From NCBI RefSeq assembly GCF_048403405.1, contig NZ_CP183129.1: 64,000 nt of DNA; one strand, 5' to 3'. The stretch's first letter is position 1, and each line of letters begins with the position of its first letter. Made by a program: the position numbers. This document shows positions 18,001-24,000 of the stretch, piece by piece. This DNA comes from Escherichia coli. GTDB lineage: Bacteria > Pseudomonadota > Gammaproteobacteria > Enterobacterales > Enterobacteriaceae.

Positions 18001-21000
18001 AAATCACCCCGTCCGCTTTTTCGGTGTACTGAGAAAGCTGGTTGAAGTTCAGGTAACGGTAAGTATCAACGGCAGTTTTATCCACCTGTGCCACGTAGGT
18101 CTGGTACTCTTCCGGCGTCGGTAGTTTGCCAATCAGCGCCGCAACAGCAGCCAGTTCCGCAGAAGCCAGGAAGACATTCGCGCCAGTACCCAGACGGTTC
18201 GGGAAGTTACGGGTAGAGGTGGAAACCACCGTCGCACCGTCTGCTACACGCGCCTGGTTACCCATACACAGGGAACAGCCAGGGATCTCGATACGCGCAC
18301 CGCTCTTACCGAAGACGCTGTAGTAGCCTTCTTCGGTCAACTGCGCGGCGTCCATACGGGTTGGCGGTGCCACCCACAGGCGGGTCGGCAACTGGCCTTT
18401 ATGCGCATCCAGCAGTTTACCCGCAGCACGGAAGTGACCGATGTTGGTCATGCAGGAACCGATAAACACTTCGTCGATCTTCTCACCCTGTACCGCAGAC
18501 AGCGGACGTGCGTCATCCGGATCGTTCGGAGCACACAGGATTGGCTCTTTAATATCCGCCAGATCGATGTCGATCACTGCCGCGTATTCCGCATCTGCAT
18601 CGGCTTCCAGCAGCTCAGGATTCGCCAGCCATTTTTCCATGCCCTGAATACGACGTTCCAGGGTACGACGATCGCCGTAACCTTCCGCGATCATCCACTT
18701 CAGCAGGACGATGTTGGAGTTCAGGTATTCGATGATCGGTTCTTTGTTCAGCTTGATAGTACAACCAGCGGCAGAACGCTCGGCGGACGCATCGGTCAGC
18801 TCAAAGGCCTGCTCAACTTTCAGATCCGGCAGACCTTCAATTTCCAGAATGCGACCAGAGAAGATGTTTTTCTTGCCTTTCTTCTCAACGGTCAGCAGAC
18901 CTTGTTTGATCGCATACAGCGGAATAGCGTGTACCAGATCGCGCAGGGTGATGCCCGGCTGCATTTTGCCTTTGAAGCGCACCAGAACGGATTCCGGCAT
19001 ATCCAGCGGCATTACGCCTGTTGCGGCTGCAAATGCCACCAGACCAGAACCCGCCGGGAAAGAAATGCCGATCGGGAAACGGGTATGGGAGTCACCACCG
19101 GTACCGACGGTATCCGGCAGCAGCATACGGTTCAGCCAGGAGTGGATTACGCCGTCACCCGGACGCAGCGACACACCACCACGGTTCATAATGAAGTCCG
19201 GCAGCGTGTGGTGCGTGTTCACGTCAACTGGCTTCGGATACGCCGCGGTGTGGCAGAAAGACTGCATCACCAGGTCAGCCGAGAAGCCCAGGCACGCCAG
19301 GTCTTTCAGTTCATCACGGGTCATCGGGCCGGTGGTGTCCTGGGAACCTACAGAAGTCATTTTCGGTTCGCAGTACGCGCCCGGACGAATGCCTTTCACG
19401 CCGCAGGCACGACCTACCATTTTCTGCGCCAGCGAGAAGCCGCGGTCGCTCTCAGCGACATCTTTCGCCTGACGGAACACATCGCTGTGCGGCAGACCAA
19501 GTGCTTCACGCGCTTTGGTGGTCAGGCCACGCCCGATAATCAGCGGAATACGGCCGCCAGCACGCACTTCATCAATCAGCACGTCGGTTTTCAGTTCGAA
19601 GGTCGCCAGCAGTTCGCCGGTTTCGTGGTTACGCACTTCACCTTTGTACGGGTAAACGTCAATTACGTCGCCCATGTTCAGGTTAGAGACGTCGACTTCG
19701 ATTGGCAGTGCACCCGCGTCTTCCATCGTGTTAAAGAAGATTGGTGCAATTTTACCGCCGAGGCACAAACCACCGCCGCGTTTGTTCGGCACATGTGGAA
19801 TATCATCGCCCATAAACCACAGAACGGAGTTAGTGGCGGATTTACGCGAAGAACCCGTACCCACAACGTCACCGACGTACGCCAGCGGGAAACCTTTCTG
19901 TTGCAGAGCTTCGATTTGCTTGATCGGACCAACAACACCAGGCTTGTCTGGCTCAATACCTTCACGGGCGTTTTTCAGCATCGCCAGCGCGTGCAGTGGG
20001 ATATCCGGGCGTGACCACGCATCCGGTGCCGGAGAAAGGTCATCGGTGTTGGTTTCGCCTGTGACTTTGAAGACGGTAACGGTCAGTTTTTCAGCCAGCG
20101 CCGGGCGATTCAGGAACCATTCGGCATCCGCCCAGGACTGCATTACCTGCTTCGCATATTCGTTGCCTGCTTTGGCTTTCTCTTCTACGTCATAGAAGTT
20201 ATCGAACATCAGCAGCGTGTGAGAAAGTGCTTTGGCAGCGATCGGTGCCAGTTTGGCATCATCCAGCGCGTCGATCAGCGGATGAATGTTGTAACCACCC
20301 TGCATGGTGCCCAGCAGTTCGATGGCTTTTTCCGGAGTCAGCAGAGGGGATTTGGCTTCACCTTTCGCGATAGCAGCCAGGAAGCCTGCTTTTACATAGG
20401 CAGCTTCATCGACGCCTGGGGGAACACGGTTGGTTAACAGATCTAACAGGAATTCTTCTTCGCCCGCGGGCGGGTTTTTCAGCAGCTCTACAAGCGCGGC
20501 CATTTGGTTTGCATCCAGGGGTTTGGGCGCAATCCCCTCAGCGGCACGCTCAGCTACGTGCTTACGGTATTCTTCTAGCACGACGGTTCTCCTCGCTCTC
20601 ATTGTCATAGTGCGGCAGGCGATTCTCTTCACGCTCCTGTGAGACAGCAGTTTGTAGGGTAAATGCCCAGTACCGCAACGGGCAGAATAGCAGGATTTTG
20701 ACGATGTGTTAATCTGTTTACAAAAAAGCAACATAAAAAAGTGGCTGAATCGTTAAGGATAGTCTAGAGATTGTTTCCCTACGTAAAAACCTCGTTAATT
20801 CGCATGGTGATAATCACCTTTCTCAACGAATCCCAAGATTAGTCAAAATTTAAACTACCGCCTCTTTATACTCGGAATCACAGCACCTGCGGGTGGCAGT
20901 TCGCCGACCATTGCGATTTCCTTGAGATCCGAATTATGAAAATGACTTTGCCGTTTAAACCCCATGTGCTGGCGCTAATTTGCAGTGCCGGGCTTTGTGC

Positions 21001-24000
21001 CGCCTCTGCCGGGCTATATATAAAAAGCCGCACAGTGGAAGCGCCTGTGGAAGCGCAATCGACACTACTGGCTGTGTCTGACGCTGCCGCGGTTACGCTT
21101 CCTGCAACGGTTTCCGCGCCTCCCGTAACACCCGCCGTCGTCAAATCCGCATTCAACACTGCACAAATAGATCAATGGGTTGCGCCTGTCGCGCTGTACC
21201 CCGACGCTCTGCTTTCACAAGTGTTAATGGCATCAACCTATCCGGCAAACGTTGCGCAAGCAGTACAATGGTCGCACGATAACCCACTTAAACAAGGCGA
21301 TGCTGCTATTCAGGCGGTATCTGACCAGCCGTGGGACGCCAGCGTTAAATCACTGGTGGCCTTTCCACAATTGATGGCATTGATGGGCGAAAACCCGCAA
21401 TGGGTGCAAAACCTGGGCGATGCTTTTCTGGCGCAGCCGCAGGACGTGATGGACTCGGTACAGCGATTGCGGCAACTGGCGCAACAAACCGGCTCGCTGA
21501 AGTCATCAACTGAACAAAAGATCATCACGACAACGAAAAAAGTCGTACCGGTAAATCAGCCCGCCAACGCCCCTGTCACACAATCAAATACCGTTTCTAC
21601 GTCCAGCCCCGTCGTCGCAGAACCTGCACCGACCGTAATAACCATTGAGCCAGCCAATCCGGATGTGGTTTATATTCCGAACTACAACCCAAACGTGGTT
21701 TACGGCAGTTGGGCCAATACCGCTTATCCGCCAGTTTATCTGCCACCACCAGCCGGAGAACCGTTTGTTGACAGCTTTGTGCGCGGATTCGGCTATAGCA
21801 TGGGCGTTGCTACCACGTACGCGCTATTCAGCAGCATCGACTGGGATGACGACGATCATGACCATCATCATCATGACGATGATGATTATCATCACCACGA
21901 TGGCGGTCATCGTGACGGTAATGACTGGCAACACAACGGCGACAACATCAATATCGACGTCAATAATTTCAACCGTATCACCGGTGAGCATCTTACTGAT
22001 AAGAATATGGCATGGCGGCACAATCCAAACTACCGTGATGGTGTGCCCTATCATGATCAGGATATGGCAAAGCGGTTTCATCAAACCGATGTCAACGGCG
22101 GCATGAGCGCCACGCAGTTACCTGCTCCAACACGCGACAGCCAGCGTCAGGCGGCAGCAAGTCAGTTTCAGCAACGAACACACGCCGCCCCCGTCATTAC
22201 GCGAGATACCCAACGTCAGGCAGCGGCACAGCGGTTTAATGAAGCTGAACACTATGGGAGCTATGACGACTTCCGCGACTTCAGCCGTCGCCAACCACTG
22301 ACCCAGCAACAAAAGGACGCCGCTCGTCAGCGTTATCAGTCGGCCTCTCCTGAGCAGCGCCAGGCAGTCCGCGAGAAAATGCAGACTAACCCGCAGATCC
22401 AGCAGCGAAGAGAGGCTGCGCGTGAGCGTATTCAGTCCGCCTCTCCTGAGCAGCGCCAGGCAGTCCGCGAGAAAATGCAGACTAACCCGCAGAACCAGCA
22501 GCGAAGAGAGGCAGCGCGTGAGCGTATTCAGTCTGCAACTCCCGAACAGCGCCAGGTGTTTAAGGAAAAAGTACAGCAGCGCCCACTGAACCAACAGCAA
22601 CGTGATAACGCCCGCCAGCGTGTTCAATCAGCATCACCTGAGCAACGTCAGGTTTTTCGGGAGAAAGTTCAGGAGAGCCGCCCACAACGTCTAAACGACA
22701 GTGACCATACTGTCAGGCTGAATAACGAGCAACGGTCAGCAGTACGCGAACGTCTCTCTGAGCGCGGAGCAAGGCGACTGGAAAGGTAAATTACAGACGT
22801 AAAAAAAGCGGCGTGGTTAGCCGCTTTTTTAATTGCCATATGTCCCGGCAAACGAAGAATTACTTCTTCTTCGCTTTCGGGTTCGGCAGGTCGGTAATGC
22901 TACCTTCGAACACTTCTGCCGCCAGGCCCACAGACTCGTGCAGAGTCGGGTGCGCATGGATGGTCAGTGCGATGTCTTCAGCATCACAACCCATTTCGAT
23001 TGCCAGGCCGATTTCACCCAGCAGCTCGCCGCCGTTAGTACCGACAATCGCACCACCGATCACACGGTGAGATTCTTTGTCGAAAATCAGCTTGGTCATA
23101 CCGTCTGCGCAGTCGGAAGCGATAGCACGACCAGAAGCAGCCCACGGGAAGGTGGCGGTTTCATAGCTGATGCCTTTCTCTTTCGCTTCTTTCTCAGTCA
23201 GACCAACCCATGCAACTTCTGGTTCGGTATAGGCGATGGACGGGATAACTTTCGGATCGAAGTAGTGTTTCTTACCGGCGATAACTTCAGCGGCAACGTG
23301 ACCTTCGTGAACACCTTTATGTGCCAGCATCGGCTGACCGACGATATCGCCGATAGCAAAGATGTGCGGTACGTTGGTACGCAGCTGTTTGTCAACGCGG
23401 ATGAAACCACGGTCGTCAACTTCCACGCCAGCTTTGCCTGCGTCGAGGTTTTTACCGTTCGGCACACGACCAATCGCTACCAGCACGGCGTCGTAACGCT
23501 GCGGTTCAGCGGGTGCTTTTTTGCCTTCCATCGTCACATAAATACCGTCTTCTTTCGCTTCAACGGCGGTAACTTTGGTTTCCAGCATCAGGTTGAATTT
23601 CTTGCTGATACGCTTGGTGAAGACTTTAACGATGTCTTTGTCAGCTGCCGGGATAACCTGGTCGAACATTTCAACCACGTCAATCTGTGAACCCAGCGCG
23701 TGGTATACGGTCCCCATTTCCAGACCGATGATACCGCCACCCATTACCAGCAGGCGTTCTGGTACTTCTTTCAGTTCCAGCGCGTCAGTGGAGTCCCAGA
23801 TACGCGGATCTTCATGCGGAATAAACGGCAGTTGGATCGGGCGAGAACCCGCTGCAATGATCGCGTTGTCGAAGTTGATCACGGTTTTGCCGTTCTCACC
23901 TTCAACTTCCAGGGTGTTAGCCCCGGTGAATTTACCCAGGCCGTTGACCACTTTGACTTTGCGGCCTTTCGCCATACCAGCCAGACCACCGGTCAGCTGA

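What the first reader, a model, noticed from the sequence alone, without database searches (positions are those of the whole stretch)
20936..22789. yacH combines a His/Asp-rich tract with ~96-nt tandem repeats
The secreted DUF3300 protein has a strongly biased segment DDDHDHHHHDDDDYHHHDGGHRDGNDWQH (nt about 21840..21960), which looks like a metal-binding tract, and 32-residue tandem repeats (SASPEQRQAVREKMQTNPQ.QQRREAARERIQ) near the C-terminus (22320..22680). Two repeat units are nearly identical at the nucleotide level, which suggests recent expansion or concerted evolution. The gene is adjacent to acnB (Fe-S) and the lpd/pdh genes, so a metal-handling role is a speculation worth testing.
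Basis: seen in the sequence. Interest (0 to 1): 0.4.

Follow-up and report, generated by a model that had tools for sequence, protein, structure and literature searches.

The report
Length-variable His/Asp tract and repeats in yacH
Both features are real parts of the known but uncharacterised E. coli envelope gene yacH, and both change length between strains by ordinary replication slippage and unequal recombination; nothing found here ties them to metal handling, so the finding is modest.

Summary
ORF 20936..22789 (+) is E. coli yacH (617 aa, Pfam DUF3300, E 2e-77). A 29-residue tract with 11 Asp and 10 His lies at 21848..21934. Four 96-nt (32-aa) repeats lie at 22295..22678, and two units are 93/96 nt identical.

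Both segments vary in length among 5,426 complete E. coli genomes. About half carry 4 repeat copies and half carry 3, through two different deletions; 5-copy alleles exist. About 18% of sampled genomes have in-frame indels in the His/Asp tract (+6, -6, +24, -39 nt), each bounded by short direct repeats.

In the structure model the tract is a disordered insertion between conserved family motifs. Its His count falls from 10 in Escherichia to 1 in Buttiauxella. The repeats are predicted to form basic helical hairpins (net +13), against a tract of net -10.

The gene is dispensable: IS1 and IS3 insertions occur in E. coli, and an 8-bp tract deletion occurs in most sequenced S. Typhimurium. No solved structure or characterised relative exists. 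The neighbours acnB and lpdA are separate, opposite-strand genes, so they do not argue for a metal role. Metal handling remains untested and only weakly supported. The published phenotype concerns cationic peptides (Cpx regulon; the deletion mutant resists protamine).

The parts
20936..22789 (+). yacH coding sequence (617 aa plus stop), a DUF3300 family protein
   Evidence: ORF list. Pfam PF11737, E 2.2e-77. Annotated as yacH in 5,425 of 5,426 complete E. coli genomes.
20936..21034 (+). N-terminal export signal, either a cleavable signal peptide or a signal anchor (aa 1-33; hydrophobic core aa 11-29)
   Evidence: Hydropathy peak 2.04 and net charge +4. Predicted helix aa 10-20. Distant homologs carry clear type I signal-peptidase or lipoprotein signals. 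Topology is inferred.
21152..21505 (+). Conserved all-helical core of DUF3300 (aa 73-190)
   Evidence: pLDDT 95-98, eight helices. Most of the near-invariant family columns lie here.
21506..21631 (+). Hypervariable Thr/Pro/Val-rich linker (aa 191-232)
   Evidence: 77-86% nt identity to K-12 in the windows covering codons ~176-275 (nt 526-825 of the gene), against 94-99% over most of the rest. Two haplotype classes appear in the allele alignment.
21632..21847 (+). Conserved Pro/Tyr-rich segment (aa 233-304), ending in 'SSIDW'
   Evidence: Family consensus IxIEPAxPQVVYVPxYNPxVVYGxW and invariant W303. pLDDT about 95 for aa 230-270.
21848..21934 (+). His/Asp tract (aa 305-333): a disordered acidic insertion encoded by a GAY/CAY quasi-microsatellite, and an indel hot spot
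   Evidence: Coordinates. pLDDT <50 for aa 311-313, 319-329 and 331-333. Net charge -10. At least 12 distinct in-frame indels among E. coli alleles, each bounded by direct repeats. About 18% of sampled genomes vary in length here.
21935..22090 (+). Conserved family motifs downstream of the Pfam model: NGDNINIDVNNFNRI and WRHNPNYRDGVPYHD (aa 334-385)
   Evidence: Family consensus VxINVNRxNxxN ... WxHxPxHRxGVxYR. pLDDT 83-95.
22295..22678 (+). Four tandem 96-nt / 32-aa repeats (basic Gln/Arg-rich helical units), followed by a degenerate partial unit extending to about 22723
   Evidence: the repeat finder D1 and TRF. Predicted helices at aa 457-547 with pLDDT 81-89. Net charge +13, pI 11.5.
22340..22531 (+). 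The recently duplicated pair (units SASPEQRQAVREKMQTNPQ[I/N]QQRREAARERIQ x2)
   Evidence: 93/96 nt identical with a 55-nt exact run. Absent once in 3-copy alleles and present three times in the 5-copy allele P0006.
22801..22830 (.). A-run / GC hairpin (GCGGC..GCCGC) / T-run between the convergent yacH and lpdA genes; a likely bidirectional terminator
   Evidence: Read directly from the sequence. Not reported by the consensus scan, so this is inferred.

Best explanation
yacH encodes a non-essential, exported envelope protein of the uncharacterised DUF3300 family. The two features are fast-mutating low-complexity modules attached to a conserved globular core.

(1) The His/Asp tract is a disordered acidic loop inserted between the family motifs 'IDW' and 'GDNINIDVN'. 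It is encoded by runs of GAY/CAY codons. These gain or lose whole codons by slipped-strand mispairing between short direct repeats.

(2) The 96-nt repeats encode basic helical units in the C-terminal tail. Copy number (3-5) changes by unequal recombination or slippage. Units 1 and 2 of this allele come from a recent duplication of the segment SASPEQ...RERIQ, or from gene conversion.

Both modules tolerate length change because neither is part of the folded core.

Functionally (inferred), the protein is charge-segregated: the tract is net -10 and the repeats net +13. I think the tract acts as a composition-dependent acidic patch whose charge responds to pH and cations. It probably binds divalent cations loosely, and possibly polycationic peptides. 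I do not think it is a dedicated metal-trafficking site.

My estimates:
- In-vitro binding of Zn, Ni or Cu by the His run: about 0.85.
- A physiological metal-handling role: about 0.2.
- The anatomy and mutational mechanism as described: about 0.9.

The overall confidence of 0.55 covers the whole statement, including the inferred functional reading.
For: Shown:
- Identity and family.
- The tract is predicted disordered and the repeats helical.
- The tract is an insertion relative to the family consensus.
- Copy-number polymorphism: 30/60 evenly sampled genomes have 4 copies, 26/60 have 3, and 3/60 have 3 through a different deletion. A 5-copy allele and other in-frame duplications exist.
- Tract length variants occur in 11/60 sampled genomes, 10 of them in-frame indels that are multiples of 3 and one an IS3 insertion. 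At least 12 distinct indels are seen.
- Direct-repeat junctions flank the indels.
- Units 1-2 are 93/96 identical within this allele; unit 1 is 89/96 identical to its K-12 ortholog.
- Dispensability: an IS3 insertion, an IS1 insertion, and an 8-bp deletion inside the tract that makes yacH a pseudogene in S. Typhimurium UK-1, 14028s, D23580 and SL1344 (PMC3391293, PMC10048834).
- Charge segregation.

From the literature: yacH is CpxR-regulated and repressed by protamine, and the deletion mutant survives protamine better (PMC9600279). It is down-regulated in a rob mutant (PMC7537768).
Against: - No experiment addresses metal, proton or peptide binding by YacH.
- The tract's overall pattern (DWDDD..HHH..DD.Y.HH.DGG) recurs in Scandinavium, Rahnella and Kluyvera orthologs. 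That suggests more constraint than a purely neutral loop would show.
- His-rich stretches recur at the same site in several distant family members (P0130, P0175, P0193, P0257). A conserved cation-binding role is therefore not excluded.
- The electrostatic reading of the protamine phenotype is my inference.
- Allele frequencies come from 60-row samples, not a full count.
Confidence: 0.55

Rival explanations
1. Dedicated periplasmic metal handling. The His/Asp tract would be a physiological Zn/Ni/Cu-binding site (buffer, chaperone or sensor), comparable in composition to the His-rich loops of ZnuA and ZinT (comparison from memory).
For: - 10 His and 11 Asp in 29 residues of an exported protein.
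- His-rich segments occur at the same position in several distant DUF3300 proteins.
- yacH belongs to the Cpx envelope-stress regulon (PMC9600279), which also responds to copper (from general knowledge).
Against: - His count drops to 3 in Enterobacter and 1 in Buttiauxella orthologs, with synteny retained.
- Natural intact alleles lack 13 of the 29 residues.
- No conserved His or Cys in the family core.
- No Fur or Zur box above chance upstream.
- The neighbours are unrelated opposite-strand genes.
- No sequence or fold relation to any metal-binding protein.
- No paper linking yacH to metals was found; the one search aimed at this was poorly targeted.
Confidence: 0.2
2. Functionally neutral low-complexity sequence. 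Both segments would be mutational by-products tolerated in disordered or modular regions of a protein under weak selection, with no role of their own.
For: - Frequent in-frame indels.
- Null alleles in natural E. coli and in most sequenced S. Typhimurium (PMC3391293).
- Tract predicted disordered.
- Repeat unit type differs between genera: about 18 aa in Enterobacter, Kluyvera and Raoultella, against 32 aa in Escherichia.
Against: - Tract composition and the 'DWDDD' start persist down to 43-57% overall identity.
- All length changes sampled in E. coli keep the reading frame.
- A basic, repeat-bearing tail is a family-wide trait.
Confidence: 0.3
3. The C-terminal repeats are a tandem array of CpxP/Spy-type 'LTXXQ' helical units. 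YacH would then be a Cpx-regulated periplasmic chaperone or adaptor.
For: - BLASTP of the YacH C-terminus against CpxP gives 35% identity over 91 columns, pairwise E 0.001, and aligns both CpxP LTXXQ motifs with SxSPEQRQ units.
- Smith-Waterman score 85 against 51-55 +/- 8 for shuffles; 3-5 of 2000 shuffles reach it.
- The CpxP sequence I used was verified against PDB 3itf.
- yacH is CpxR-regulated (PMC9600279).
Against: - Pfam LTXXQ and Metal_resist models do not hit at E <= 10.
- hhalign probability is 7%.
- Similarity to Spy is not significant.
- A profile of the repeat units finds no CpxP or Spy chain in the PDB.
- The comparison was chosen after the fact, in a Q/R-rich repetitive sequence.
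Confidence: 0.08
4. Diversifying selection on an exposed envelope protein. Length and sequence variation would be maintained because phages, colicins, host immunity or antimicrobial peptides target YacH.
For: - yacH is 94.1% identical to K-12, against 98.0-99.4% for acnB, lpdA and aceF. The linker falls to 77-86% and has dimorphic haplotypes.
- 4,170 of 5,425 genomes are only 90-95% identical to this allele.
- The deletion mutant is more protamine-resistant (PMC9600279).
Against: - yacL (93.9%) and speD (95.7%) are similarly divergent in this strain, so part of the signal is regional.
- No dN/dS test was run.
- Surface exposure is not shown.
- Null alleles are rare in the sample.
Confidence: 0.12

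Closest known systems
DUF3300 (Pfam PF11737) exported proteins of Proteobacteria
   Same: Full-length match to the model. Same architecture: export signal, helical core, Pro/Tyr-rich segment, Asn/Asp motif, WxHxPxHR motif, and a long basic low-complexity tail with lineage-specific repeats.
   Different: The strong His/Asp expansion and the 32-aa repeat unit are specific to Escherichia and close relatives. E. coli yacH lacks the DUF2950 partner gene that follows DUF3300 in many other bacteria (PMC4653623). No family member has a known function.
In-frame coding tandem repeats (VNTRs) and trinucleotide-type slippage tracts in bacterial envelope proteins
   Same: Copy number differs between strains. 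Indels are bounded by direct repeats. The units sit in modular or disordered regions.
   Different: This is not an on/off phase-variation switch. Every E. coli length change sampled is a multiple of 3. Only Salmonella shows a frameshifting 8-bp deletion, which looks like a fixed pseudogenisation rather than a reversible switch.
His-rich loops of periplasmic zinc proteins (ZnuA, ZinT) and His-rich tails of SlyD, HypB and ZraP (comparison from memory)
   Same: Similar His/Asp composition, predicted disorder, and (for ZnuA, ZinT and ZraP) periplasmic location.
   Different: No homology of the surrounding domain. No metal-regulated promoter signal. His content is not conserved among orthologs. Metal binding is untested.
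CpxP/Spy LTXXQ family (PF07813)
   Same: Short (S/T)PEQ(R/Q)Q..(R)EK helix-start motifs, a helical prediction, and Cpx regulation.
   Different: Fails the family HMM and profile tests. The resemblance may be a generic helix N-cap in a Q/R-rich sequence.

Membership tests
DUF3300 (PF11737) | Significant match to the Pfam HMM across the whole model | tested here: met
   E 2.2e-77, model positions 2-227 of 227, aa 75-333.
DUF3300 (PF11737) | N-terminal export signal | tested here: inconclusive
   A hydrophobic N-terminus is present. Cleaved signal peptide versus signal anchor was not resolved. Distant members have clear type I signal-peptidase or lipoprotein signals.
DUF3300 (PF11737) | Co-localisation with a downstream DUF2950 gene (reported as universal in rhizobia, PMC4653623) | tested here: not met
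   In the window and in all Enterobacteriaceae loci, yacH lies alone between acnB and lpdA. DUF2950 follows the gene in L012, L014 and L015. This is a context trait, not a criterion for domain membership.
Coding VNTR (in-frame length-variable repeat) | Tandem units whose copy number differs among strains while the reading frame is kept | tested here: met
   3, 4 and 5 copies, with spans of 514 and 610 nt.
Phase-variable contingency locus | Repeat-length changes that shift the frame or promoter spacing and switch expression on and off | tested here: not met
   All sampled E. coli indels are multiples of 3. The only frameshift is the 8-bp deletion in S. Typhimurium lineages (PMC3391293).
CpxP/Spy/ZraP LTXXQ family (PF07813) | Match to the family HMM or profile | tested here: not met
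   No hit at E <= 10 for the full protein or the C-terminus. hhalign probability 7%. A repeat profile finds no CpxP or Spy chain.
CpxP/Spy/ZraP LTXXQ family (PF07813) | Pairwise similarity that includes both LTXXQ motifs | tested here: inconclusive
   BLASTP E 0.001; Smith-Waterman z about 4 against shuffles for CpxP; not significant for Spy.
Periplasmic His-rich metal-binding proteins (ZnuA/ZinT type) | Homology or fold of a metal-binding domain | tested here: not met
Periplasmic His-rich metal-binding proteins (ZnuA/ZinT type) | Demonstrated metal binding and metal-dependent regulation | not testable with these tools
   Only a consensus scan was possible. Fur and Zur matches upstream are at chance level: 12/19 Fur matches occur 120 times in the window.

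The most novel reading that the evidence does not exclude
YacH would be a Cpx/Rob-controlled periplasmic protein built as a charge-switch. A His/Asp loop responsive to metals or pH would gate a basic array of CpxP-like (LTXXQ-type) helical hairpins. Natural variation in loop length and hairpin number would tune envelope susceptibility to polycationic antimicrobial peptides. This would give the first function to the large DUF3300 family (about 9,500 clusters at 50% identity).
Probability: 0.07. Interest if true: 0.6.

Novelty: already known. Interest (0 to 1): 0.3.

Why it matters
yacH is one of the remaining E. coli K-12 genes with no known function, and DUF3300 is a large, widespread family with no characterised member and no solved structure.

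The survey here gives usable handles. Natural alleles exist with 3, 4 or 5 repeats, with tract lengths from -13 to +8 residues, and with IS-disrupted copies. These can be compared directly in protamine, cecropin and metal assays.

The survey also shows that simple in-vitro metal binding will not be informative. It removes the argument from the acnB and lpd neighbours.

In itself, the finding is an ordinary case of low-complexity length variation in a dispensable envelope protein.

Tried and rejected
- A Pfam scan of the C-terminal repeats alone gave nothing below E 0.03; DUF3106 scored 0.42.
- The CpxP/Spy LTXXQ lead gave one weak pairwise signal and failed the HMM, profile and structural checks. 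I keep it only as a low-probability rival.
- Consensus scans for CpxR, Fur, Zur and CueR-like sites upstream of yacH found no CpxR half-site pair with <=2 mismatches in 20582..20935. Fur and Zur matches were at chance level.
- The promoter/terminator scan found no promoter-like site for yacH upstream of the gene; its only + strand matches lie inside the coding sequence or downstream of it. The terminator-like hits inside the repeats are on the minus strand and number about what shuffles give.
- The second BLAST 'place' per genome is not a paralog. It is the 96-nt offset self-match in 4-copy alleles.
- Literature searches for yacH with tandem repeat, VNTR, metals or b0117 found only author-name noise, apart from the Salmonella indel papers.
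- The long antisense and alternate-frame ORFs across the tract and repeats (for example 22118..22627 on the minus strand) are taken to be by-products of stop-poor repetitive sequence. I did not pursue them.

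
Full report
**What is there**

The ORF at 20936..22789 (+) encodes 617 aa. It matches Pfam DUF3300 across the whole model (aa 75-333, E 2.2e-77). The same locus is annotated yacH in 5,425 of 5,426 complete E. coli genomes.

It lies between acnB and lpdA, both on the minus strand. By alignment to K-12, the annotated acnB start corresponds to about 20581, not the longest-ORF start at 20734. lpdA is at 22860..24317. yacH is therefore divergent from acnB across a 354-nt spacer and convergent with lpdA, and cannot share an operon with either. 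An A-run/GC-hairpin/T-run lies at about 22801..22830; I read it from the sequence, and the consensus scan did not report it.

**Checking the observation**

- The tract DDDHDHHHHDDDDYHHHDGGHRDGNDWQH is aa 305-333, nt 21848..21934.
- It has 11 Asp and 10 His in 29 residues. No other long stop-free stretch in the window exceeds 7 His in a 29-aa window.
- The 32-aa repeats form four in-register 96-nt copies at 22295..22678 (TRF).
- Units 1 and 2 are 93/96 nt identical and share a 55-nt exact run. The others are 45-61/96 identical.
- The pattern of identities shows the array as a1[a2c1][a2c1]c2-d.

Eleven sampled alleles and 120 near-identical protein clusters show that both segments vary in length.

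Repeat region, from an evenly spaced 60-row sample of the 5,426 genomes:
- 610 nt (4 copies) in 30 genomes.
- 514 nt (3 copies) in 26 genomes.
- 3 further genomes (CFT073/LF82 type) have 3 copies through a different deletion.
- A 5-copy allele (P0006, 648 aa) and other in-frame duplications of 45 and 17 aa exist.

Tract region, from a second 60-row sample:
- Standard length in 49 genomes.
- +6 nt in 6, -6 nt in 1, +24 nt in 1 and -39 nt in 2.
- The remaining match is partial because an IS3 element is inserted there.

At least 12 distinct in-frame indels fall within aa 301-322. They include His runs of 3 to 7, changes of one DH unit, loss of DDDYHHH and gain of DWDD.

At the DNA level each change is bounded by short direct repeats:
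- a CATGAC duplication;
- a 24-nt duplication;
- a 39-nt deletion between CATCATC copies.

This is the signature of slipped-strand mispairing.

Units 1 and 2 are closer to each other within this allele (93/96) than unit 1 is to its orthologs in K-12 (89) or EPEC (88). That fits recurrent duplication or gene conversion.

**Dispensability**

- yacH is interrupted by IS3 in strain 2018-05-2CC.
- It is interrupted by IS1 in strain E69.
- An 8-bp deletion inside the His/Asp tract makes it a pseudogene in S. Typhimurium UK-1, 14028s, D23580 and SL1344 relative to LT2 (PMC3391293). The same deletion is seen in a milk isolate (PMC10048834).

**Anatomy and family**

phmmer against 1.84 billion representatives finds 9,509 DUF3300 relatives at E <= 0.001. 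The alignment and inspection of homologs give a common plan:
- an export signal;
- a helical core;
- a variable linker;
- a Pro/Tyr-rich segment ending in an invariant Trp;
- an Asn/Asp motif (D[IV][DN][IV]N..N);
- a WxHxPxHRxGVxYR motif;
- a long basic, low-complexity tail with lineage-specific internal repeats and a basic C-terminus.

In YacH the His/Asp tract is an insertion between 'SSIDW' and 'DWQHNGDNINIDV'.

The AlphaFold model (mean pLDDT 73, core above 90) gives:
- the tract as disordered (pLDDT below 50 for aa 311-313, 319-329 and 331-333);
- the repeats as six helices (aa 457-547, pLDDT 81-89);
- the last 70 residues as disordered.

The tract has net charge -10. The repeat region has net +13 and pI 11.5.

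No solved structure resembles the protein:
- PDB profile search: none.
- Foldseek: best E 2.0.
- AFDB50: only DUF3300 proteins.
- NCBIfam: no model.

**Orthologs and context**

Synteny acnB-yacH-lpdA is seen in every locus with enough flank: E. albertii, an IS1-disrupted E. coli, Kluyvera, Raoultella and Buttiauxella show both neighbours. RIT691, Enterobacter and one short E. coli contig show the one neighbour their contig reaches.

The tract is not constant across them. The acidic start DWDDD(D) is kept, but His content falls:
- 10 in E. coli and E. albertii;
- 6 in Kluyvera and RIT691;
- 4 in Raoultella;
- 3 in Enterobacter;
- 1 in Buttiauxella.

Scandinavium and Rahnella orthologs have intermediate His/Asp tracts.

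The C-terminal repeats of other genera are about 18-aa 'NPTxQQQQRRxxAK' units. The 32-aa unit is an Escherichia feature.

Distant homologs sit elsewhere in the genome. In three of seven contexts examined they are immediately followed by a DUF2950 gene. That pairing was already noted in rhizobia in 2015, with no function assigned (PMC4653623).

**Function**

The literature I could search gives only indirect data.
- yacH is CpxR-regulated. It is repressed by protamine and, as cited there, by cecropin A. The deletion mutant survives protamine better (PMC9600279).
- It is strongly down in a rob mutant (PMC7537768).
- Its deletion modestly raises recombinant protein yield (PMC7376861).
- Nothing links it to metals, though the one search aimed at this was poorly targeted.

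Upstream consensus scans give no Fur or Zur match above chance and no CpxR box with <=2 mismatches.

The metal hypothesis therefore rests on composition alone. It is weakened by the non-conservation of His and by natural 13-residue deletions. A His4 run will almost certainly bind Ni or Zn in vitro, so that assay cannot discriminate.

My preferred reading is as follows. These are composition-constrained, length-tolerant modules of a charge-segregated envelope protein. The acidic, His-bearing loop responds to pH and cations and can engage them, and possibly polycationic peptides. The basic helical tail engages anionic envelope components. These functional steps are inferred.

**A lead that did not hold up**

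From memory, the units (S/T)PEQRQ..REK resemble the LTXXQ motifs of CpxP and Spy.

In favour:
- The CpxP sequence I used was verified against PDB 3itf.
- BLASTP aligns both CpxP motifs with YacH units (35% identity over 91 columns, pairwise E 0.001).
- Only 3-5 of 2000 shuffles reach the score.

Against:
- Pfam LTXXQ does not hit.
- hhalign gives 7% probability.
- Spy is not significant.
- A repeat profile finds no CpxP or Spy chain.
- Neither protein appears in the listed structural hits.

I rate it a low-probability rival.

**Verdict**

The features are real and vary between strains. The metal-handling idea is untested and gets no support from context. The gene and family are already catalogued, with function unknown. 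Interest is modest.

Noticed in passing
window 21460..21760 (yacH nt ~526-825, codons ~176-275): The region spanning the linker between the helical core and the Pro/Tyr-rich segment is only 77-86% identical to K-12 at the nucleotide level. It exists as two haplotype classes (KQTVTAPVIPSNTVLTANPVIT and NQPANAPVTQSNTVSTSSPVVA) that combine mosaically with N-terminal and C-terminal variants. This suggests old polymorphism or recombination.
   Followed up: partly
window 16736..20581 versus L001: Divergence from K-12 is uneven across the neighbourhood: yacL 93.9%, speD 95.7% and yacH 94.1%, against acnB 98.0%, lpdA 99.4% and aceF 98.5%. The strain is 100% identical over the yacH region to E. coli strain 4621.
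   Followed up: no
L006 2290..2470 (E. coli O18) and L007, L020: B2-type strains carry about 170 extra bases between yacH and lpdA. These contain a REP/BIME-like palindrome (GTAGGTCGGATAAGGCGTTTACGCCGCATCCGGCA) that is absent from the window.
   Followed up: partly
L019 2738..3965; L024 5114..5870: Natural yacH knock-outs: an IS3-family insertion at the end of the His/Asp tract in strain 2018-05-2CC, and an IS1 insertion at about codon 375 in strain E69.
   Followed up: yes
L012 5296..6336; L014 1664..2614; L015 3291..4199: In distant bacteria the DUF3300 gene is immediately followed by a DUF2950 (PF11453) gene, which looks like a two-gene operon. E. coli yacH has no such partner next to it (noted earlier in PMC4653623).
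   Followed up: partly
window 20582..20734: The longest acnB ORF (17984..20734) extends 51 codons beyond the start annotated in K-12, which corresponds to about 20581. The extension is probably not translated.
   Followed up: no
window 21645..22106 (+), 21824..22084 (-), 22118..22627 (-): Long alternate-frame and antisense ORFs run across the His/Asp tract (Met/Ile/Thr-rich translations) and across the repeats. They are most likely by-products of the repetitive, stop-poor coding sequence.
   Followed up: no
P0148, P0130 (distant DUF3300 proteins): Other family members have their own expanded repeats at equivalent places. P0148 has NVNNNNFNGNRQ units after the Asn/Asp motif, and P0130 has five near-identical approximately 20-aa 'DARERAREVA.NR.AG.G' units in the tail. 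Repeat expansion in these two regions is therefore a family-wide tendency.
   Followed up: partly
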